64,000 bases of DNA, taken from NCBI GenBank assembly GCA_963702895.1, contig OY969767.1:1454315-1518314 (forward strand). The letters run 5' to 3'. The stretch is from an uncultured Elusimicrobia bacterium. Its GTDB lineage: Bacteria; Elusimicrobiota; Elusimicrobia; 2-01-FULL-59-12. The notes beneath the pieces are model-generated. The model was given only the letters and a program-made list of their open reading frames with translations, did not search any database and was not told the origin of the DNA. Each line of letters begins with the position of its first letter. Position 1 is the stretch's first letter. Of this stretch, positions 29,125 through 46,603 are shown piece by piece. The translations under genes and the position numbers were made by a program.

Positions 29125-30221
29125 AGAATCAGCATCGCGTCACCATAAGAGTAAAAGCGATAGCCCCGTTGGATGGCGACTTCGTAAGCGGGGCGCAGCG
29201 AGAATGGCGGTATCGGAGTATCGGAGTTTCGGGGTATCGGTGTTACATCAGCTCTAACCCCGATACTCCGGTACCCCGTTACTCCGGTACGGTCACTGTA
29301 GAAGGCGCACGCCAAGAGCAGGGGCGTCGAACCGGGGAGGTGAAAGTTCGTGATCAGGGCATCGACGGCCTTAAAGCGGTAGCCGGGATAGATATAAAGC
29401 TTGGCCTCGCCCCGGCCGGAAGAAAAGGTCCCCGACGCGTCGCAGATCGTTTCCAACGTCCGCGTCACGGTTGTGCCAACCGCGATCAGGCGTCGGCCTT
29501 CCTGCTTCGCCCGATTCAAGGCCTTTGCCGTGTCGGCGCTCACTTCATACATTTCGGAAAGCATCGGGTGTTCTTCGATGGTTTTCGTTCGAACAGGACG
29601 AAACGTCCCCCAACCCACATGTAAAACCAGCGAGGTCGTCTCGATCCCTCTGGACGTGAGACGCCTTAAAAGATCCTCCGTGAAGTGGAAACCCGCTGTT
29701 GGGGCCGCGACAGCCCCCTCCGTCCTGGCATAGACCGTTTGATAGCGCTCGACATCCGCAAGATTGACAGAGTTGCGCTTGATATAAGGAGGCAGCGGCA
29801 TTTCCCCATGGCGATCCAGATAGCTCCGGATATGATTGCTTGAAAACATCAGCCGCCATTCCCCTTCCGCCAAACGCTCAGACATCTCGGCACGCAGGCC
29901 CTCCGGAAACTGGAGGGTCGTCTTTTGTGTCGCGCCTCGCACAAGCGCCTTCCAGGAGGCATCCTCTTGGGCCAACAGCAGGACCTCCACTTTGCCGCCG
30001 GAAACCTTCGTTCCTCTTAATCGGGCTGGGAAGACTTTCGTGGCGTTGGTCACGAGCAGGTCGCCTGGCCGAAGATGTTCGTCCAGTCCAAAAAAATAGT
30101 CGTGGTTGAGGGTTCCCTGGTTCCGGTCCAGGACCATGAGGCGTGAATGATCGCGCGGCGAAACAGGAGCTTGCGCGATTGTGCCTGCCGGTACATCGTA
30201 ATGAAAGTCCTGTAATTTCAC
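29121..30221 (-). CDS. queA: S-adenosylmethionine:tRNA ribosyltransferase-isomerase with in-frame repeat insert
   Basis: IAQ.P...RD.SRL, PLPPYI, YQTVYA, AAPTAG, HVG.GTF, TNFHLP, YSYGDAM. Confidence 0.97.
   Translation of the reverse strand: MKLQDFHYDVPAGTIAQAPVSPRDHSRLMVLDRNQGTLNHDYFFGLDEHLRPGDLLVTNATKVFPARLRGTKVSGGKVEVLLLAQEDASWKALVRGATQKTTLQFPEGLRAEMSERLAEGEWRLMFSSNHIRSYLDRHGEMPLPPYIKRNSVNLADVERYQTVYARTEGAVAAPTAGFHFTEDLLRRLTSRGIETTSLVLHVGWGTFRPVRTKTIEEHPMLSEMYEVSADTAKALNRAKQEGRRLIAVGTTVTRTLETICDASGTFSSGRGEAKLYIYPGYRFKAVDALITNFHLPGSTPLLLACAFYSDRTGVTGYRSIGVRADVTPIPRNSDTPIPPFSLRPAYEVAIQRGYRFYSYGDAMLIL
29210..29290. repeat. Inverted arrays of 8-bp tandem repeats in-frame inside queA
   Basis: gtatcgga gtatcgga gtttcggg gtatcggt ... 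accccgat actccggt accccgtt actccggt. Confidence 0.88.
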
Positions 30222-33919: not shown

Positions 33920-33954
33920 TTCTCCGTGTCCCCGCATCACCGCGTCACCGCGCC
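33882..33954. repeat. Inverted arrays of 8-bp tandem repeats at the yebC-ruvC junction
   Basis: gacgcggg gaaactgg gacgtgga gaa ... tccgtgtc cccgcatc accgcgtc accgcgcc. Confidence 0.8.
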
Positions 33955-40573: not shown

Positions 40574-40788
40574 GTTACCCCGGCGAAAGCCGGCCCTCCA
40601 CACATCCGGCGGGCCGTCCGCCCTGCCGTGTGGCGGACGCGGTCTATCATGTTACGACGTAAATGATGGATCCGACACACTACAGTCGGACGCCTGTTGT
40701 GTGGCGTCCCGGCTTTCGCCGGGATGACGGACTAAAAAGTGCACGATGCTCAGACGATAGGATAAACTCAAGTGAAGATTCCCGGTTA
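40574..40788. repeat. Composite REP-like element with two nested hairpin inserts and a shared right tail
   Basis: gttaccccggcgaaagccgg[47 bp]ggtctatcat...atgatgga[36 bp]tcccggctttcgccgggatgac, then a tail homologous to 56017-56080. Confidence 0.85.
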
Positions 40789-42480: not shown

Positions 42481-42560
42481 CTAGCCGGGAAACTGCCGTT
42501 GCCGTCAGCCGGCCCTCCACACATCCGGCGCCCGCCACACGTCTAGCGAGGCCTCGCCGG
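42481..42560. repeat. Truncated composite element (left end plus hairpin units)
   Basis: ctagccgggaaactgccgttgccgtca resembles 55863 ctaaccggaaaactgtagttgccgtca; followed by gccggccctccacacatccggcg. Confidence 0.7.
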
Positions 42561-42564
42561 ATCA

Positions 42565-42927
42565 TCAGAAAATCCGGACACGGCGCTTGTGAAAATCAAT
42601 CGTGAGCCGGCGCTCTTCCAATAAGCGTGTCCCAATCAAAATATCTTTTGCATGCGAAGCGACGGTATCGACTTCCTGGGTTCTCCCAAACCATCGAATT
42701 CGTCCGACAAATACTTTTTCTCGAACCACATCGCCGGTCGCAATCTCGTACGACTCATATCCGATCCAACGCCAACCCAATCGTTGAATCAGAGATTCAG
42801 GCAGACTTAACGTGCCGTTGAATCCTGTGTCGATGACGGCGGAGTGAGATTGAGAACGATTCGTGGAAAACAGAAGGAAGATTCGGACGACGGGCTCACC
42901 ACGGGAATTAACATGCCCTTTGAGCAT
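42565..42927 (-). CDS. Clan AA (retropepsin-like) aspartic protease
   Basis: AVIDTGFNG.L.LP, ILIGT.LL. Confidence 0.9.
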   Translation of the reverse strand: MLKGHVNSRGEPVVRIFLLFSTNRSQSHSAVIDTGFNGTLSLPESLIQRLGWRWIGYESYEIATGDVVREKVFVGRIRWFGRTQEVDTVASHAKDILIGTRLLEERRLTIDFHKRRVRIF

Positions 42928-43170
42928 CTACCCGTGTCGGCGCAATTTATGAACGGCAGGATAGCCGATCCGGAAAAAGTCAAATACTTTGTTTGGAAAT
43001 GCCGTCATCGCGTGCCGGGCGGCTTCCAGGACATCCTTTCCCAAAAAGTACTGTCCAGAATCGGGCTCGACAGCGACAACCTGTCCTTTATGATCGGCGA
43101 GCAGGCGCCGTTCCACTTGGCGGAAGAGTTTAGAGGCTTTTCGAAATTTCTGGAGTTCTTTTTTGCTCAC
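42928..43170 (-). CDS. DUF5678-like small protein
   Basis: H.GQVVAVEPDSGQYFLG.D..EA...FP...F..FRIG; adjacent to the protease. Confidence 0.75.
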   Translation of the reverse strand: MSKKELQKFRKASKLFRQVERRLLADHKGQVVAVEPDSGQYFLGKDVLEAARHAMTAFPNKVFDFFRIGYPAVHKLRRHG

Positions 43171-43367
43171 GGTGACTCATATTTTAACATACTCTTGCGT
43201 CGCTTGAGGCGGGGTCACCATCGCCACGCGCTAGCGCTAGGCGATGGCCAACGACACCTTCGCTCAATGGCGAAGGAGGTCGGTCTCGTGACACACAGGG
43301 CCGACGGTACCAGCTGTCCCGTCCCCTATATACGTTCGAAAATCGCTGGCTCACACAACGGACCTGC

Positions 43368-43455
43368 AGCCGGGGATCGGATTTCCCGCCACTACACCGT
43401 TGGCGGGTCCGCCAGAGCTTCGGTGGCGGAGAACCGACGACCACCTGTTTACGAA
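43368..43455 (-). pseudogene. 3' half of a tRNA-Thr(CGT) with a 46-bp insert in the T-loop
   Basis: TTCGTAA-ACAGG-TGGTC-GTCGGTTC[insert 43385-43430]AAATCCGAT-CCCCGGCT aligns with the 3' half of the intact tRNA. Confidence 0.85.
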
Positions 43456-43542
43456 TTCTTTGGGACGCCACTCACGATCATTTGGAATCCAATTGATTAC
43501 AAATATGAAAACCTAAATTCTCGGTTTTCCGCCGCAGCCAGG

Positions 43543-43651
43543 ATTCCAAGATTCTTCCAACATTACTCCAAGATTTGGTCGACGTCATTCCAAGAAAAGC
43601 CTGATCTTGTACTACAAAAGAAATCCAAGATCATCGGATACAGATTCCAAG
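43543..43651. repeat. Helically phased TCCAA(G) direct repeats
   Basis: Starts at 43545, 43556, 43567, 43589, 43624, 43646 (gaps 11, 11, 22, 35, 22). Confidence 0.6.
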
Positions 43652-44197
43652 TTATTGTCGGAGTGTCATCCCGGATTGATCGGCGCGGACAAACATCCCC
43701 ATCACATCCAAATCGGAGACGTTTAAATCTTCATCCTTTGGCGGAAGGGTCTGGGTTCCGAGAGGCCGCGTATAGGACAGAATGTAGTTCAAGAATTCGC
43801 CTGAAGGACTCCGCCATTGTCCTGACCACGTCAGGATTACGAGTTGTCTGTTATTAGCGGAAACAATTTTCCGTTTCCATTTCCACAATGTGACCGGCGG
43901 TTCTTTTGATTTAACTTGGTCTGTCTTAAGCGCCTGCCACCTGTCCCGCGCCAGCGCATTGGACAACTCTGCGATCACATCAGAGGCCGGATAGCTCGCC
44001 TTCACTCTATAAATCACCTGATCAGGTTGCCATCCATTTGGATATTGGCACTCCAAGTACTCGACGTCGGTGGCTCCCTTGACAGCGAAAAGCGATTTCG
44101 GATGATCTTGCGGGTTGGGATGGCATTCCAGAGCGTACGTCAGTTGAATGAGCGCGGTGAGGAGAGCAGCGGCAAGAAGACAGCCGATTCGACTCAT
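43652..44197 (-). CDS. Hypothetical secreted protein
   Basis: GGAGG SD, signal peptide (..TYA-LE), 181 aa, between two tRNA fragments. Confidence 0.75.
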   Translation of the reverse strand: MSRIGCLLAAALLTALIQLTYALECHPNPQDHPKSLFAVKGATDVEYLECQYPNGWQPDQVIYRVKASYPASDVIAELSNALARDRWQALKTDQVKSKEPPVTLWKWKRKIVSANNRQLVILTWSGQWRSPSGEFLNYILSYTRPLGTQTLPPKDEDLNVSDLDVMGMFVRADQSGMTLRQ

Positions 44198-44347
44198 TAT
44201 TCCGGCCTCCTATTCCTAGAAGAGGTATTCCAAGGCCATTGCGTCGTAATTGTCACATCGGTTTCGACATACGTTGCGCTAGCCACGGGAGACGCCTCAA
44301 ATTCTGGGAAATTTTGCTGATAAGCGCCACTTCCCACAAAAAAATTA

Positions 44348-44429
44348 AGCCGGGGAAGGGACTCCCCGCCACTGAGTCTCTGGCGTTCCCGCCAATGCCG
44401 TAGTGGCGGGGAACCCACGACCTTCTCTT
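44348..44429 (-). pseudogene. tRNA 3' fragment (Thr-like) with a 46-bp insert in the T-loop
   Basis: AGAGAAGGTC-GTGGGTTC[insert 44365-44410]GAGTCCCTT-CCCCGGCT. Confidence 0.75.
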
Positions 44430-44509
44430 TCCGCCCCCATCCTAATTTCGTAAACCTCAAAACTCTTTACCGTCTGGGGTCGTCTGATGGTGGTTCCCAT
44501 CGTAAAATA

Positions 44510-44582
44510 AGCCGAGGATCGGACTTGAACCGACAACATCTCCCTTACGAAGGGAGTGCTCTACCAATTGAGCTACCTCGGC
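44510..44582 (-). tRNA. tRNA-Thr(CGT)
   Basis: GCCGAGG TA GCTC AATTGGTA GAGC A CTCCC TTCGTAA GGGAG ATGTT GTCGG TTCAAGT CCGAT CCTCGGC T; complete cloverleaf, CCA not encoded. Confidence 0.97.
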
Positions 44583-44814
44583 GTAAATCGGTCGCTTTAG
44601 TTGCCTTAAATTTGCTCGTAACATCGGTAAACGCTTCATCGATTTTCGAATCGATCCGATCTGCGCTTTTAAAACGCAAATCTTAGACCAACGTGAATAC
44701 ATCCCGTGAGAGTAGGCCATCCAGCCTACGTCACCCACCCAGTTCTCAGTAGCCTTTTGTTAGCGGCAATTTGAACCTATGCCAGCTTGTAAAGCAGGAA
44801 CAGCCATAGTGTAA

Positions 44815-45111
44815 TTATCGCCGAGCAGATTCCCAGCGCTTAGCGGCCAGCGTAAAAGCATGGCGATGTTTTGACCAATCATGCAAGATCGCTGGATCAA
44901 AATCAGCGCCATTGGGCCACACAAGCGTGTGAACTTCGCGGTCAAGGCGAACTCGATTAAAGACCCTTGGATTTTTTAATGGCCCGTAAAGGTCCCCAGC
45001 CAGAACAGGCTGGAAATCAATTGTTCGCTTGCATTGATCATCGAACGATATTTCCAAGGTGTAAGGACCTGCCTTTTTAAACGATCGAATTTTATAAATG
45101 GAATGTTTCAT
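44815..45111 (-). CDS. DUF2442 protein (putative antitoxin, DhiA-type)
   Basis: Y.L.ISFDD....IDF...L.G.LY.PL..P..F, TLVWPNGADFDP..L. Confidence 0.9.
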   Translation of the reverse strand: MKHSIYKIRSFKKAGPYTLEISFDDQCKRTIDFQPVLAGDLYGPLKNPRVFNRVRLDREVHTLVWPNGADFDPAILHDWSKHRHAFTLAAKRWESARR

Positions 45112-45331
45112 AATCGCCTCACTTAAGCGGTTTAATAGGCTCTGGCTTCCGCCCAGCTTGCAATCTCTGCCAGTCCAGCATCAATTCTTTCCTATGAAGT
45201 TCTGCCCATGCCTCGACTAACCGACGCTGTCTTTTTGGGAGAGAGCCGGATATTGTTTCAATCGGATCAATCCCATAAACAGCCACGTGCTCCTGATAAT
45301 AGGCGTGAAAATGTGCTTTATGGTGTCGACC

Positions 45332-46603
45332 CACTGGTGTCCGGTAAAAGTTAGCCGAAGCTTAGCCATAGCTGAGGCTCCATAGTTCGAACTTTTGAAA
45401 GATTCTTTTCGGGCATACGCAATAGATCGATGAGACTGAGCCGGTCGAGAAGGGTATTCTGAACCAACCGGTGCAGCAAGAACAGCGAACGCTGGAATCG
45501 TGTCTGGAACTTGATGTAGGCCAGGAGCAGGAAATAGCACAAGGCCACCCAGATTTGGGTAAAGACGGCATTTTTGGAAGTGCCGAGGAACGTTTTGATT
45601 TTGAGATGCTGCTTGAGCCACTTGAAGAACAGCTCGATCTGCCAACGGGCCTTATAGATTTGGGCAATGGTGAAAGCGGCCAGTTTGAAGTTATTGGTCA
45701 TAAACTGGTAAGTGATGGCGGTGTCGGCATCGTAGTAGCCGATGAGTCGTAAAGGTTTCTTGTATTTCGTCTTGGTGCGTGGGCCTGTAAGCTCAATGGT
45801 GCGATCGTACAACAGGCCGTTTTTTAAGGGAATTTCTTGCTGTCCGGTGATGCGGCAGGTGAGGTTGTCTTTGGCACGGGTGACGAAGAAAGAGCCGAGA
45901 TCGTCGATCTGACGGTACCAGCCGTAATCCATGTAGCCGCGGTCGAAGACATAGATGCTGTCCGGTTCTAAGGGAAAAAGACGTTTGGCGGCATGGTCGA
46001 AGCACTTTCCATCGGTGATGACGGCAAAGGAAGGGATTTGGCCACGCAAGTCCAGTTGGCAATGCAGTTTGATCGCTCCTTTGGCCTGTTTAAAGGTGGC
46101 CCAAGGGAAAAGGTTCAGGCACAGTTCCATGTTCGTGGAATCGAAGCAGGTCACTTTGTGTTTAAAACGGAACTGATGCTTAGGCGCGATGGCTTGGCAC
46201 CGATCCAGCAGGTGATAGAAGAGCTTTTCCATGATGCGCCAGTCGCGCCCAGCGTTAGCGTCAGCCAGGGTAGAACGTTTCACTGGCGGCAGCCCCAAGT
46301 GATAGAGCTTGGGTTGTTGCGTGCCTAAAGCCGTCTGGATGTCACGCAGGCTTGTTTTACCGCTGGCCTGAGCATAGAGGAGTGTCGTGAGCTGGTTCCA
46401 AGTCGAGAATTTTTTAACGTAGGCGTCGCCGCCGAAGCCAGAAACGGCTTGGTCGAACTGATGTCGTGGTAAAAGGAGAAGCAGTTGGTTCATTATGGTG
46501 TTAGAATGCATGAGCGAAATCCTCCCTCGGACAGAATGGTTTGCTTGGTCGCAATCATTCTACCGAACCAGGGGGATTTCGCATTTTTAACCGGACACGA
46601 GTG
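45332..46603 (-). mobile_element. IS4-family insertion sequence, copy 1 (1272 bp)
   Basis: TIRs CACTGGTGTCCGGT / ACCGGACACGAGTG; 9-bp TSD GTGTCGACC (45323-45331, 46604-46612). Confidence 0.95.
45351..46511 (-). CDS. IS4-family DDE transposase (DUF4372 + DDE_Tnp_1)
   Basis: SLRDI, RSTLADAN, DST, KLH, DRGY, YKARWQIELFFK (YREK motif). Confidence 0.95.
   Translation of the reverse strand: MHSNTIMNQLLLLLPRHQFDQAVSGFGGDAYVKKFSTWNQLTTLLYAQASGKTSLRDIQTALGTQQPKLYHLGLPPVKRSTLADANAGRDWRIMEKLFYHLLDRCQAIAPKHQFRFKHKVTCFDSTNMELCLNLFPWATFKQAKGAIKLHCQLDLRGQIPSFAVITDGKCFDHAAKRLFPLEPDSIYVFDRGYMDYGWYRQIDDLGSFFVTRAKDNLTCRITGQQEIPLKNGLLYDRTIELTGPRTKTKYKKPLRLIGYYDADTAITYQFMTNNFKLAAFTIAQIYKARWQIELFFKWLKQHLKIKTFLGTSKNAVFTQIWVALCYFLLLAYIKFQTRFQRSLFLLHRLVQNTLLDRLSLIDLLRMPEKNLSKVRTMEPQLWLSFG

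What the first reader, a model, noticed from the sequence alone, without database searches (positions are those of the whole stretch)
43368..44429. The same 46-bp hairpin dimer sits at the centre of the T-loop in two dead tRNA fragments, in opposite orientations
Seen: both tRNA 3' fragments are split at GGTTC^RA by 46 bp made of two 23-bp hairpins. Insert 43385-43430 is cccgcca-ctacaccgt-tggcggg tccgcca-gagcttcgg-tggcgga. Insert 44365-44410 is cccgcca-ctgagtctc-tggcgtt cccgcca-atgccgtag-tggcggg. The second matches the reverse complement of the first, including the loops (ccgaagctc~ctgagtctc; acggtgtag~atgccgtag). There is no target duplication, and the intact tRNA-Thr nearby is uninterrupted. 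Inference: two independent, orientation-free insertions at the near-palindromic TTC|RA centre. This points to a tiny non-autonomous element mobilised in trans that persists only in non-functional tRNA copies. No candidate mobiliser is encoded in the window. I cannot confirm novelty without a database search.
Basis: partly seen in the sequence, partly recalled or inferred. Interest (0 to 1): 0.85.

Follow-up and report, generated by a model that had tools for sequence, protein, structure and literature searches.

The report
Hairpin pairs splitting tRNA T-loop copies
The two 46-base inserts belong to a large family of paired-hairpin repeats that sit exactly in the middle of the T-loop of leftover copies of tRNA gene ends, a pattern repeated behind many tRNA genes in this bacterial lineage and not found in the papers searched.

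Summary
Window 43385-43430 and 44365-44410 are 46-bp double hairpins. Each splits a tRNA-Thr-like T-loop at TTC^RA without target duplication, in opposite orientation, downstream of an intact tRNA-Thr(CGT).

They are not an isolated oddity. The genome (uncultured Elusimicrobiota, 2.72 Mb) holds about 45 copies of this type and at least 75 REP/REPIN-like hairpin dimers in all. Of those 75, 24 sit at GTTC^RA (chance 1.7%). Of the 45, 17 lie within 200 bp of a tRNA gene (chance 0.8%).

The split fragments are local duplicates of the neighbouring tRNA's T-arm and acceptor 3' strand, often in tandem arrays. By a matched script, 19 of 48 tRNA genes here have such a downstream copy, against 13 of 34 in another genus and 3 of 39 in a hairpin-poor relative. 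Removing the inserts restores no tRNA.

The hairpin stems covary with Watson-Crick pairs only, which points to a DNA-level constraint. The module occurs in 8 of 10 genomes of the family, rarely elsewhere in the class, and in MAGs labelled Omnitrophota.

No mobiliser was found: the only Y1 gene is truncated, and no Y1 locus is flanked by the repeats.

Verdict: a REP-like element family with a new, very specific T-loop niche. The mechanism is unresolved.

The parts
44510..44582 (-). Intact tRNA-Thr(CGT). Its T-loop TTCAAGT is uninterrupted.
   Evidence: ARAGORN; Rfam tRNA 70 bits, E 1.5e-14.
44411..44427 (-). Fragment 2, 5' side: variable region, T-stem 5' arm GTGGG, and TTC.
   Evidence: Read. 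T-split alignment row win_frag2.
44365..44410 (.). Type-1 hairpin dimer. On the + strand the CTGAG end is on the left and the GTAG end on the right. One inner arm is mutated (TGGCGTT).
   Evidence: (nhmmer E 1.6e-9).
44348..44364 (-). Fragment 2, 3' side: GAGT, T-stem 3' arm CCCTT, acceptor 3' strand CCCCGGC and discriminator T. A T-run follows.
   Evidence: A terminator-like hairpin was flagged here, but no more often than in shuffles.
43652..44197 (-). ORF of 181 aa with a signal-peptide-like N-terminus and no Pfam match. It lies between the two split fragments and may be cargo of an old insertion at the tRNA end.
43431..43455 (-). Fragment 1, 5' side: anticodon-loop remnant TTCGTAA, ACAGG, variable GTGGTC, T-stem 5' arm GTCGG, and TTC.
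   Evidence: alignment row win_frag1.
43385..43430 (.). Type-1 hairpin dimer. On the + strand the CTAC end is on the left and the variant end (CCGA on its own strand) on the right. It is in the opposite orientation to 44365-44410 relative to the tRNA strand.
   Evidence: (nhmmer E 4.8e-10).
43368..43384 (-). Fragment 1, 3' side: AAAT, T-stem 3' arm CCGAT, acceptor 3' strand CCCCGGC and T. Its counterpart in G003 (AAATCCGATCCTCGGCTGCAAG) carries another hairpin type.
40615..40709 (.). Cluster of related hairpins outside any tRNA context, between convergent ORFs. It holds one copy of a 25-27-nt hairpin that recurs across the genome (CGTCCGCC-ACACGGCAG-GGCGGACG) and a type-2 pair (TCCGAC-ACACTACA-GTCGGA and GGACGCC-ACACAACA-GGCGTCC).
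   Evidence: genome 1494929-1495023; ORF layout.

Best explanation
The two inserts are members of a lineage-wide family of REP/REPIN-like palindromic DNA elements. Each element is two inverted hairpins of 22-23 bp. Type 1 is N-CCGCCA-CTAC/CTGAG...-TGGCGG-N twice. Type 2 is stem7-ACACnnnn-stem7' followed by stem7-nnnnGTGT-stem7'. A longer type 3 also exists.

The elements are placed as whole units at a C^R step, without target duplication and in either orientation. Their strongly preferred site is the centre of GGTTC^RA, which is the T-loop. Within tRNA genes and their copies they are found only in partial copies: insertion into a working tRNA gene would destroy it.

The partial copies are short local duplications of the adjacent tRNA's 3' end (T-arm, acceptor 3' strand and a short trailer). 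I propose three further steps.
(a) A trans-acting nuclease/ligase inserts the hairpins as folded single-stranded DNA. It recognises the CCGCC-type hairpins and an extruded stem-loop target. An HUH/Y1-like chemistry is my best guess at about 0.3.
(b) Once a hairpin pair sits in a duplicate's T-loop it breaks the direct repeat. This stabilises the otherwise unstable short duplication, so such modules accumulate and can then amplify in tandem.
(c) Gene and pseudo-copy stay alike through local conversion or repeated regeneration.

Shown: the family, the exact site, the absence of target duplication, the orientation freedom, the link to tRNA 3' duplicates, the DNA-level stem constraint and the distribution. 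Inferred: the enzyme, the single-strand route, and the reason duplicates and hairpins go together.
For: Family size:
- About 45 type-1 loci.
- 153 hairpins with ACAC-led loops. That count is not above chance: a control loop motif (CACA) gave 139 in the same scan.
- 75 perfect-stem REP-like dimers.

Site:
- 24 of 75 dimers lie at GTTC^RA on one strand or the other, against 1.7% of 200,000 random placements.
- A T-arm scan gave 23 clean cases with 44-46-bp inserts, all on the strand of the nearest tRNA, and 21 of 23 lie 3' of it.
- The same GGTTC^AAT step is used in a D-loop copy of tRNA-Gly.

tRNA link: 17 of 45 type-1 dimers lie within 200 bp of a tRNA gene, against 0.8% expected.

The fragments are local duplicates. 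In most of the 23 cases the T-arm and acceptor strand match the neighbouring tRNA. Tandem arrays are seen at Gln(ctg) x5, Phe x3, Pro(tgg) x4 and Gly(ccc) x2.

Matched count of tRNA genes with a downstream copy of their own T-loop 3' half:
- G000: 19 of 48, of which 13 are hairpin-split.
- G007: 13 of 34 examined, of which 12 are split.
- Hairpin-poor G004: 3 of 39 examined, of which 1 is split.

Uninterrupted pseudo-copies exist but are few: Leu(tag) and Arg(gcg) in G000, Phe and Ala(ggc) in G004. So duplication can precede insertion.

Different hairpin types or orientations occupy the same pseudo-T-loop in different genomes:
- tRNA-Met: type 1 in G000, type 1 flipped in G007, type 2 in G005.
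- Fragment 1: type 1 in G000, type 3 in G003.

Stems: 98% of cells are paired and 11 of 19 pairs carry compensatory changes. Across the two hairpin helices only 1 of 224 cells is a G-U pair. The element is symmetric under reverse complement. Both fit a DNA-level constraint rather than an RNA one.

Precedent: some REP dimer families sit inside palindromic targets (PMC3733652, passages read).
Against: - No mobiliser is tied to the repeats. G000 has only an 84-aa truncated Y1 ORF.
- Y1 genes occur equally in families that lack the modules.
- None of the 15 Y1 loci inspected (7, 8) has a CCGCC-type hairpin of this family beside the gene. One module-bearing MAG showed no Y1 match.
- GTAG/CTAC lies inside the loop, not at the hairpin foot as in canonical REPs, and only 33 of 90 ends carry it.
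- The model does not explain why so many tRNA genes acquire a 3' duplicate at all. It also does not explain why the duplicate's left side (2-21 nt upstream of the T-stem) is often copied too.
- It does not explain why the right halves of pseudo-copies follow lineage-specific substitutions of the resident tRNA. This was seen in 3 of 3 informative comparisons between G000 and G007: Met, Glu-ttc and Pro-ggg.
- The same tRNAs carry modules in two genera. 6 of G007's 12 split cases are also split in G000 by script, and 4 more by eye. The stems are kept while the loops drift. This looks like maintenance rather than junk.
- 51 of 75 dimers are not at T-loops, and about 9 type-1 copies sit between octamer repeats at ..C^GG.., so the sequence rule is loose.
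Confidence: 0.55

Rival explanations
1. The split T-arm is the attachment site of small integrative elements. A circular element carries 'T-stem 5' arm - TTC - hairpin dimer - RA - T-stem 3' arm - acceptor strand' as its own site. It recombines at TTC^RA with the tRNA gene's T-loop and supplies a new 3' end to the gene. The old 3' end is left downstream, behind the hairpin dimer. Cargo can be a gene or almost nothing. Re-integration gives tandem arrays.
For: - The intact gene always comes first and the split copies follow on the same strand.
- Arrays have a constant period: 82 bp at Gln(ctg), about 116 bp at Phe, 312 bp at Asn.
- Cargo lies between gene and split copy in some cases. A GIY-YIG ORF sits at tRNA-Asn in both G000 and G007. 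ORF181 plus fragment 2 sits between tRNA-Thr and fragment 1, which in G003 lies only 15 nt from the gene.
- Distal copies look older. The tRNA-Met fragment keeps the T-arm CCAGG/CCTGG, which is still the functional T-arm in G005. The last tRNA-Gly(ccc) copy keeps an encoded CCA.
- The same hairpins at the same step in another phylum suggest a transferable system.
Against: - G000 has only 4 tyrosine recombinases. Two are Xer-like, and none sits next to a tRNA module.
- Units of 75-116 bp are too small to be double-stranded circles.
- Orthologous fragments carry different hairpin types, so hairpin and fragment are not inherited as one piece.
- Hairpin dimers also sit in D-loops and anticodon loops of 5' partial copies upstream of tRNA genes, which this scheme does not produce.
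- Uninterrupted duplicates exist.
- In tRNA-Arg(cct) the left side is not a copy of the gene's T-stem.
Confidence: 0.2
2. The modules are host-useful structures kept by selection downstream of tRNA genes. They could act as a barrier to exonucleases or read-through, as a processing or decoy signal for tRNA 3'-end enzymes, or as binding sites for a nucleoid or recombination protein. On this view the hairpins are domesticated REP-like sequences.
For: - The same tRNAs carry modules in two genera, while flanking intergenic DNA no longer aligns.
- Stems and the ACAC/GTGT or CTAC/GTAG motifs are conserved while loop centres vary.
- Pseudo-copy right halves follow the neighbouring tRNA's own substitutions.
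- The position is always on the transcribed strand, 8-100 nt behind the gene.
- One module even lies in the 16S-23S spacer behind tRNA-Ala(tgc).
Against: - G004 and G009, in the same family, manage with almost none.
- Only about 40% of tRNA genes have one.
- The near absence of G-U pairs in the hairpin stems and the reverse-complement symmetry argue against an RNA-level structure.
- No T-run directly follows the hairpins, and terminator-like hits are no more frequent than in shuffles.
- Many family members lie far from tRNA genes.
Confidence: 0.15
3. The fragments are parts of intron-containing, split or permuted tRNA genes of the archaeal kind, and the 46 bp are introns in the T-loop.
For: Inserts sit in T-, D- and anticodon loops, the places where non-canonical archaeal tRNA introns are found (this comparison is recalled, not tested).
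Against: - Deleting 45 type-1 inserts, and then 69 inserts of all types, leaves the ARAGORN set unchanged at 48 genes.
- Those 48 genes already cover all 20 amino acids.
- The fragments lack 5' halves.
- The host tRNAs are bacterial in type.
Confidence: 0.01
4. The window's two copies stem from one interrupted fragment that was duplicated and then locally inverted, so there is no target preference.
For: The two fragments share the acceptor strand CCCCGGCT and lie 1 kb apart.
Against: - The T-stems and loop halves differ between the two fragments.
- G003 has the counterpart of fragment 1 with another insert type.
- Genome-wide preference for GTTC^RA is about 19-fold over chance.
Confidence: 0.01

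Closest known systems
REP / BIME elements and REPINs with their RAYT (Y1 HUH) transposases in Enterobacteria and Pseudomonas
   Same: - Short GC-rich imperfect palindromes present in tens to hundreds of copies.
- Mostly inverted doublets that can fold either as two hairpins or as one long hairpin.
- Hetero-dimers of variant units, and a GTAG/CTAC tetranucleotide.
- Stems kept by compensatory change while loops vary.
- Lineage-restricted, and long persistence at the same sites.
   Different: - GTAG lies inside the loop next to the outer arm, not at the foot.
- The two units are only 0-2 bp apart.
- No RAYT gene flanked by the repeats was found in 15 loci, and the only Y1 gene in this genome is truncated.
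- The preferred site is the centre of a tRNA T-loop sequence in tRNA pseudo-copies. This was not found for REPs in the papers searched.
REP dimer families that sit inside palindromic targets (A. variabilis GTAG-15, T. roseum GTAG-23, H. neapolitanus CGTC-1; PMC3733652, passages read)
   Same: A hairpin dimer lies at the centre of a small stem-loop-forming target, so the target's two halves flank the dimer.
   Different: There the targets are anonymous palindromes. Here the target is the T-arm of a copy of the adjacent tRNA gene, and the whole module is tied to tRNA 3' ends.
IS200/IS605 family and its miniature derivatives (single-strand 'peel and paste' by Y1 TnpA); from established knowledge
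   Same: Hairpin-bearing ends, insertion next to a short specific sequence without target duplication, and a dependence on folded single-stranded DNA that would fit a loop target.
   Different: Those elements have two like-oriented subterminal hairpins and a fixed orientation relative to the target. Here the hairpins are inverted, abut the ends, and orientation is free. No TnpA or TnpB partner was identified.
tRNA-gene integration by tyrosine integrases with T-loop crossover (P4-like islands); from established knowledge, and PMC9897764 (passages read) for tRNA gene fragments in general
   Same: An intact tRNA is followed on the same strand by a displaced copy of its 3' end, the junction lies in the T-loop, and successive events push older copies outward.
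   Different: Spacers are only 8-100 bp in most cases, there is no integrase beside them, and a hairpin dimer sits exactly at the junction. Partial 5' copies with hairpins in D- or anticodon loops also occur.
Insertion sequences that target REP hairpins (IS1397, ISPpu9/10, IS621 of the IS110 family); recalled, with the ISPpu9 abstract seen in the listing
   Same: Structure-directed insertion into a stem-loop.
   Different: The roles are reversed. Here the palindromic repeat is the guest and a tRNA-derived stem-loop is the host.
Rickettsia palindromic elements (mentioned in PMC3733652)
   Same: Palindromic repeats in Rickettsia; the passages read place RPE-4 and RPE-6 among the CGTC-type REP families. 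That they insert into structured or coding genes is recalled, not read.
   Different: RPEs are longer and tolerated inside functional genes (recalled). The present elements were never found inside a functional tRNA.

Membership tests
REP / REPIN | Short imperfect palindrome repeated many times in one genome | tested here: met
   About 45 type-1 dimers and 75 perfect-stem dimers. 153 ACAC-loop hairpins were also counted, but a control motif gave 139. The reversed-pattern control gave 0.
REP / REPIN | Conserved GTAG (or CGTC) tetranucleotide at the 5' foot of the hairpin | tested here: not met
   CTAC/GTAG is present at 33 of 90 type-1 ends, but it lies inside the loop adjoining the outer arm. 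The other ends are CTGA (20), CTAA (9), TCAC (6) and rarer ones. Type 2 has ACAC/GTGT instead.
REP / REPIN | Inverted doublets able to form one long hairpin | tested here: met
   The dimer architecture is seen in all listed loci. Insert 44365-44410 folds as a single long hairpin and insert 43385-43430 as two hairpins.
REP / REPIN | Cognate RAYT gene, usually single copy and flanked by the repeats | tested here: not met
   G000 has one truncated 84-aa Y1 ORF. None of the 15 Y1 loci from G000, relatives and Omnitrophota-labelled MAGs has a CCGCC-type hairpin of the family nearby. Y1 counts do not follow module presence.
REP / REPIN | Extragenic location | not tested
   No gene calls were made genome-wide. 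The window copies and the cluster at 40615-40709 lie between ORFs.
REP / REPIN | Vertical, lineage-restricted inheritance | tested here: inconclusive
   The type-1 pattern occurs in 8 of 10 genomes of the family and 0 of 20 others. The module model hits 8 of 10 in the family, 3 of 12 and 1 of 6 in two other families, and 0 of 122 elsewhere in the class. However, the same hairpins at the same T-loop step occur in MAGs labelled Omnitrophota.
IS200/IS605-type miniature element | Insertion beside a fixed short sequence without target duplication | tested here: met
   There is no duplicated base at TTC^RA in the 23 clean T-arm cases. Outside T-loops the rule loosens to C^R.
IS200/IS605-type miniature element | Two like-oriented subterminal hairpins, and a fixed orientation relative to the target strand | tested here: not met
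   The hairpins are inverted and terminal. The CTAC end lies on either side of the T-loop (by hand).
Integrase att remnant at a tRNA gene | Direct repeat of the tRNA 3' end downstream of the intact gene, on the same strand | tested here: met
   19 of 48 tRNA genes in G000. All 23 clean modules are on the tRNA's strand.
Integrase att remnant at a tRNA gene | Integrase gene and island between the repeats | tested here: not met
   Most spacers are 8-100 nt. The genome has 4 tyrosine recombinases. The only integrase-like one beside a dimer cluster (2517030-2517503) is 15 kb from any tRNA.
Intron-containing or split tRNA genes | Removing the insert restores a complete tRNA | tested here: not met
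   48 genes are predicted both before and after deleting 45 and then 69 inserts.
Any Rfam RNA family | Covariance-model match at the fragments | tested here: not met
   Only the intact tRNA-Thr passes. The two other rows (E 2.4 and 2.8) are chance-level and lie elsewhere.

The most novel reading that the evidence does not exclude
The split T-arm module (tRNA 3'-end copy plus hairpin dimer at TTC^RA) is the footprint of an undescribed recombination system. This system reads the universal T-arm as a folded DNA stem-loop and couples hairpin insertion to duplication or replacement of the tRNA gene's 3' end. It is shared horizontally between Elusimicrobiota and Omnitrophota and run by an enzyme that is neither a known RAYT nor a tyrosine integrase. 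Alternatively, the modules are domesticated by the host as a tRNA-gene accessory.
Probability: 0.3. Interest if true: 0.9.

Novelty: new variant of a known kind. Interest (0 to 1): 0.72.

Why it matters
How REP-like repeats choose their sites and spread is poorly understood. Here a REP-like family shows an exact, easily scored landing site: one phosphodiester bond in a sequence that every genome has.

There are dozens of independent filled sites, a few empty sites, tandem arrays, and a natural near-null relative. This makes target choice, single-strand folding and the link between palindromes and local duplication directly testable.

It also matters for annotation. About 40% of the tRNA genes in these genomes are followed by pseudo-3' ends that can confuse tRNA, att-site and island predictors.

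If the module reflects a new T-arm-directed recombination activity, it would add a third way to exploit tRNA genes, besides integrases and homing endonucleases.

Tried and rejected
- Rfam scan of 42500-45500: nothing but the tRNA.
- tRNA intron or split-gene reading: rejected by the in-silico curing.
- RAYT as mobiliser: no flanking repeats, and the gene is truncated in G000.
- Tyrosine integrase: too few, and none adjacent.
- GIY-YIG. Six of 9 small ORFs hug tRNA genes, and one lies between tRNA-Asn and its split copy in two genera. But GIY-YIG counts over 31 genomes do not follow module presence, and none was found in the G004 tRNA flanks.
- IS110-family transposase 1.3 kb from a repeated dimer copy, and other ORFs next to repeated copies: no consistent neighbour.
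- Eight-base target duplication suggested by flanking octamers: rejected. The octamers are pre-existing arrays found all over the genome.
- Orthologous empty site for the window locus: the flanks do not align even within the genus.
- The search for related loci with the MscS-like protein: uninformative.
- Expression: no RNA holder was listed. The one DNA run gave three short contigs that do not reach either insert. This says nothing either way.
- Terminator scan: 2 hits against 2.2 in shuffles.
- The sense/antisense labels printed by the script are wrong for 3 rows because of a boundary slip. Orientations were read by hand instead.
- The count 'at least 25 of 48 tRNA genes with a hairpin-bearing pseudo-3' copy' is by eye. 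The scripted, stricter figure is 19 of 48 with a copy, of which 13 are split.
- Supplementary files of PMC3733652, which list the REP families per genome, were not consulted.
Full report
**1. The observation**

On the minus strand both hosts read as tRNA 3' parts.

Fragment 1 (43368-43455) runs from an anticodon-loop remnant (TTCGTAA) through the T-arm GTCGG-TTC|AAAT-CCGAT to the acceptor strand CCCCGGC-T. Fragment 2 (44348-44427) runs from the variable region through GTGGG-TTC|GAGT-CCCTT to the same acceptor strand. No base is repeated at either junction.

The intact tRNA-Thr(CGT) at 44510-44582(-) is the only tRNA that ARAGORN and Rfam find in the region.

Insert 2 equals the reverse complement of insert 1 at 37 of 46 positions, against 30 of 46 in direct orientation. 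Each insert is 30-32 of 46 self-complementary. Both fold far better than shuffles as single-stranded DNA.

**2. What the inserts are**

The window lies in a single 2.72-Mb contig of 57% G+C. RecA relatives carry titles of uncultured Elusimicrobia/Elusimicrobiota.

A profile built from the dimers finds 45 loci at E <= 1e-3. The consensus is N-CCGCCA-loop-TGGCGG-N, N-CCGCCA-loop-TGGCGG-N. The outer arm is CCGCCA in 73 of 90 ends.

Read from each end on its own strand, the loop begins with CTAC in 33 ends, CTGA in 20 and CTAA in 9. The commonest pairing is one CTAC end with one CTGA end (13 of 45). Only one dimer is CTAC at both ends. The unit is therefore a hetero-dimer with a definable polarity.

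A second type of 44 bp has 7-bp stems of varied sequence, with loops ACACnnnn and nnnnGTGT. A third, longer type also occurs.

A scan for perfect-stem double hairpins lists 113, of which 75 are of this CGCC/CGAC kind. Single hairpins with ACAC-led loops number 153, but a control loop motif (CACA) gave 139, so that count alone is not above chance. One cluster lies in the window at 40615-40709, between convergent ORFs.

In size, copy number, inverted-doublet design, hetero-dimers and the GTAG/CTAC motif, this is the anatomy of REP/BIME/REPIN elements as described in PMC3733652 (passages read).

**3. Where they sit**

Seventeen of the 45 type-1 dimers lie within 200 bp of a tRNA or tmRNA gene, where random placement gives 0.8%.

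Of the 75 dimers, 24 are flanked by GTTC on one side and RA on the other, on one strand or the other. This holds for 1.7% of 200,000 random placements given the same boundary slack.

A direct scan looked for 'five bases, TTC, 36-55 bases holding two hairpins, RAnY, the complement of the five bases'. It gives 40 hits, against 13-27 for five control loop motifs. Twenty-three of the 40 are clean 44-46-bp G+C-rich dimers. All 23 lie on the strand of the nearest tRNA gene, 21 lie 3' of it, and they sit 8-1072 nt away.

The same step is used in a D-loop copy of tRNA-Gly (GGTTC^AATGG). Other dimers sit in anticodon loops (CTTC^GGA, TTT^CAA) and D-arms of 5' partial copies upstream of tRNA-Arg, -Glu and -Leu.

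About nine type-1 dimers lie instead between two units of octamer tandem arrays (..AAC^GG....ATC^GG..). These arrays are a separate and very abundant feature of this genome, with 335 TRF rows of period 8 or 16. The apparent 8-bp direct repeats at those sites are therefore not target duplications.

**4. The hosts are local duplicates of the neighbouring tRNA's 3' end**

In most of the 23 cases the T-arm and acceptor strand match those of the adjacent gene. Gln(ctg), Phe, Asn and Gly(tcc) are identical. Pro(cgg), Pro(ggg), Glu(ttc), Thr(ggt) and the first Gly(ccc) copy are identical in their 3' half or differ by about one base. Val(cac), Met, Leu(caa) and one Pro(tgg) unit differ more.

Several form tandem arrays in which the first, functional copy is empty and all the later copies are filled. 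There are five 82-bp units behind tRNA-Gln(ctg), three units of about 116 bp behind tRNA-Phe, four behind tRNA-Pro(tgg) and two behind tRNA-Gly(ccc).

A script asked, for every tRNA gene, whether the 14 nt after its T-loop TTC recur within 600 nt downstream with at most 2 mismatches. The results were:
- G000: 19 of 48 (13 split by hairpins after a TTC, 2 uninterrupted, 4 other).
- G007, another genus: 13 of the 34 tRNAs examined out of 42 found (12 split, none uninterrupted, 1 other).
- G004, same family but nearly free of the hairpins: 3 of the 39 examined out of 44 found (1 split, 2 uninterrupted).

By eye, more diverged modules bring G000 to at least 25 of 48.

Perfect uninterrupted T-arms outside tRNA genes number only 2. 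Duplicates and hairpins therefore go together. The few empty duplicates show that duplication can come first.

Many pseudo-copies start in the D-loop and have a GTCGCC...GGCGAC hairpin in place of the anticodon arm.

**5. Not introns**

Deleting the 45 type-1 inserts, and then 69 inserts of all types, leaves ARAGORN's set at 48 genes. These cover all 20 amino acids.

**6. DNA-level constraint**

The evidence comes from an alignment of 16 type-2 modules from G000.
- The T-stem and the two hairpins are paired in 98% of cells.
- Eleven of 19 pairs show changes on both sides. Sliding the partners by 1-3 columns drops pairing to 36-47%.
- In the two hairpins only one of 224 cells is a G-U pair.

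Strict Watson-Crick compensation and reverse-complement symmetry are what a palindrome needs if both strands must fold, or if a dimeric protein binds it. They are not typical of an RNA structure.

**7. Distribution**

The exact type-1 pattern occurs in 8 of 10 other genomes of the family and in 0 of 20 genomes of 12 other families.

A covariance model of the type-2 module was searched over 151 genomes of the class.
- It hits 8 of 10 genomes in the family, with up to at least 35 hits per genome.
- It hits 3 of 12 and 1 of 6 genomes in two other families, and 0 of 122 elsewhere.
- I verified one out-of-family hit as a true module behind tRNA-Ala(ggc) (G050). The hits in G038, G076 and G123 were not reproduced by my script.

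In relatives the modules again lie 9-93 nt behind tRNA genes on the same strand, and they match those genes.

A pattern scan of one genome per species across all prokaryotes gave 33 stretches. About half are chance matches in G+C-rich genomes. The true modules lie in Elusimicrobia MAGs and, unexpectedly, in MAGs labelled Candidatus Omnitrophota. There, CCGCCA hairpin dimers split GGTTC^AAATCC 11-20 nt behind tRNA-Glu(ctc) or tRNA-Arg, once as two 75-bp tandem units. Bin labels of MAGs can be wrong, and I did not check them.

**8. Turnover and persistence**

At the same pseudo-T-loop, different genomes carry different guests.
- Behind tRNA-Met: type 1 in G000, type 1 in the other orientation in G007, type 2 in G005.
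- The counterpart of window fragment 1 in G003 lies 15 nt behind tRNA-Thr(CGT) and holds a type-3 insert. This also shows that about 1 kb (fragment 2 plus ORF181) was added between gene and fragment 1 in G000.

On the other hand, the same tRNAs carry modules in G000 and G007. Six of G007's 12 split cases are also split in G000 by script, and 4 more by eye. For tRNA-Pro(cgg) the hairpin stems are shared among three genera while the loops differ.

The right halves of pseudo-copies follow lineage-specific substitutions of the resident tRNA in all three informative comparisons: Met, Glu-ttc and Pro-ggg. By contrast, the tRNA-Met pseudo-copy keeps a T-arm (CCAGG/CCTGG) that is still the functional one in G005.

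**9. Search for a mobiliser**

- **Y1 (PF01797).** G000 has one 84-aa truncated ORF with degenerate motifs. Intact genes of 148-329 aa are present in most relatives, including families without modules. None of the 15 Y1 loci examined has a hairpin of this family nearby.
- **Tyrosine recombinases.** There are four, and none sits at a tRNA module.
- **Small GIY-YIG ORFs.** Six of 9 lie within about 100 nt of tRNA genes, and one lies between tRNA-Asn and its split copy in two genera. Their numbers do not follow module presence across 31 genomes.
- **The window's IS4-like transposase (45351-46511) and an IS110-family gene near a repeated dimer copy.** Neither shows a consistent link.

**10. Reading**

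The best-supported account has the following parts.
- A REP/REPIN-like family is placed as whole hairpin units at a C^R step, preferentially in the loop of a T-arm-like stem-loop.
- The absence of duplication and the free orientation fit single-strand, HUH-type chemistry.
- Real tRNA genes cannot tolerate insertion, so within tRNA sequences only partial copies keep the hairpins.
- A hairpin pair in the duplicate breaks the direct repeat and may thereby preserve it. This would explain why duplicates pile up only where the hairpins are abundant.

The enzyme, the single-strand route and the stabilising effect are inferences.

The main rival is that the module is the attachment site of miniature integrative elements that renew the tRNA's 3' end. 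It explains the order of copies, the arrays and the cargo better. It fits poorly with swapped hairpin types at orthologous fragments, with 5' partial copies, and with the lack of a recombinase.

A host function is suggested by conservation and by the co-variation with the gene. It is opposed by the near-null relatives and by the DNA-type covariation.

**11. Literature**

Six full-text searches found no description of palindromic repeats at tRNA T-loops or of tRNA 3' pseudo-copies carrying them.
- PMC3733652 (passages) gives the REP framework and the precedent of REP dimers inside palindromic targets.
- PMC9897764 (passages) attributes prokaryotic tRNA fragments to integrating elements and CRISPR spacers.
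- PMC2330249 (abstract in the listing) shows a GIY-YIG homing endonuclease in a phage tRNA cluster.

Subscription journals and supplements were not searched.

**12. Limits**

- No RNA or population data bear on the locus.
- Relatives are MAGs of 73-98% completeness.
- Kin are not independent.
- The counts for G004 and G007 cover only the tRNA loci I fetched.
- Some counts are by eye, as marked.

Noticed in passing
window 29257-29290 and 33924-33952; genome-wide in G000: Octamer tandem arrays (GTAACGGA, GTATCGGG, CGGCGAAC, GACGCGGG and others) occur usually as an array followed by its inverted counterpart, forming long imperfect palindromes. TRF lists 335 rows of period 8 or 16. Some arrays have up to 27 units.
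   Followed up: partly
G000 genome 205875-206090, 580617-580811, 1652975-1653118, 1700967-1701170, 1813193-1381 and 1813505-1813693 (outside the window); also L140, L147, L148: Small GIY-YIG ORFs (80-110 aa) lie immediately beside tRNA genes. One, with an internal stop, sits between tRNA-Ile and tRNA-Ala in the rRNA spacer. Two sit between tRNA-Asn and its split 3' copies. The tRNA-Asn arrangement recurs in G007.
   Followed up: partly
window 43652-44197 (-): ORF of 181 aa with a signal-peptide-like start and no Pfam family. It is enclosed by the two split tRNA fragments and is absent between tRNA-Thr and the fragment-1 counterpart in G003.
   Followed up: partly
window 45351-46511 (-): IS4-like DDE transposase (DDE_Tnp_1 plus DUF4372) about 770 bp upstream of tRNA-Thr, with a DUF2442 ORF at 44815-45111 between them.
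   Followed up: no
G000 genome 1652353-1652460, 2184260-2184330, 580945-580980, 2042440-2042500; G004 L177: Pseudo-tRNA copies that begin in the D-loop have the anticodon arm replaced by a GTCGCC...GGCGAC (or TCCGCC...GGCGGA) hairpin. Some of them have an uninterrupted T-arm.
   Followed up: partly
G000 genome about 813560-813700 and 817450-817600; G003 L016 about 1590-1690: A third, longer double-hairpin type (56-66 nt) occupies the same TTC^RA step of pseudo-T-loops behind tRNA-Leu(cag), tRNA-Ala(cgc) and, in G003, tRNA-Thr(CGT).
   Followed up: partly
G000 genome 1171100-1171700: Five tandem units of 120 bp lie behind tRNA-Val(gac). Each ends with the tRNA's last 15 nt or so and holds inverted octamer arrays, but no T-stem 5' arm and no hairpin dimer.
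   Followed up: no
G000 genome 390719-390889 (L001): Truncated, degenerate Y1 (IS200/RAYT-like) ORF of 84 aa, the only PF01797 match in the genome.
   Followed up: yes
G000 genome 445382-446434 (L235): An IS110-family transposase lies 1.3 kb from one of three repeated copies of a type-1 dimer that share long flanks (447758, 1133643, 1939466). The dimer may be part of, or a target of, a larger repeat.
   Followed up: partly
G000 genome 15447, 17209, 460999, 1722874, 2295032, 2582868: Six copies of one type-2 dimer with identical flanks (cggcgacc ... ggcccgcc), so they are part of a longer dispersed repeat. The first two lie 1.76 kb apart around an RNase_H_2-like ORF.
   Followed up: partly
L187, L189, L203, L224, L230-L232 (MAGs labelled Candidatus Omnitrophota): CCGCCA hairpin dimers with shorter loops lie at GGTTC^AAATCC behind tRNA-Glu(ctc) and tRNA-Arg genes. 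As with tRNA-Met in G000, one pseudo-copy keeps a T-arm that differs from the resident gene's.
   Followed up: partly
G000 genome 1700700-1700840: A long (CCAT)n/(CTAT)n tetranucleotide microsatellite lies directly behind tRNA-Ala(ggc).
   Followed up: no
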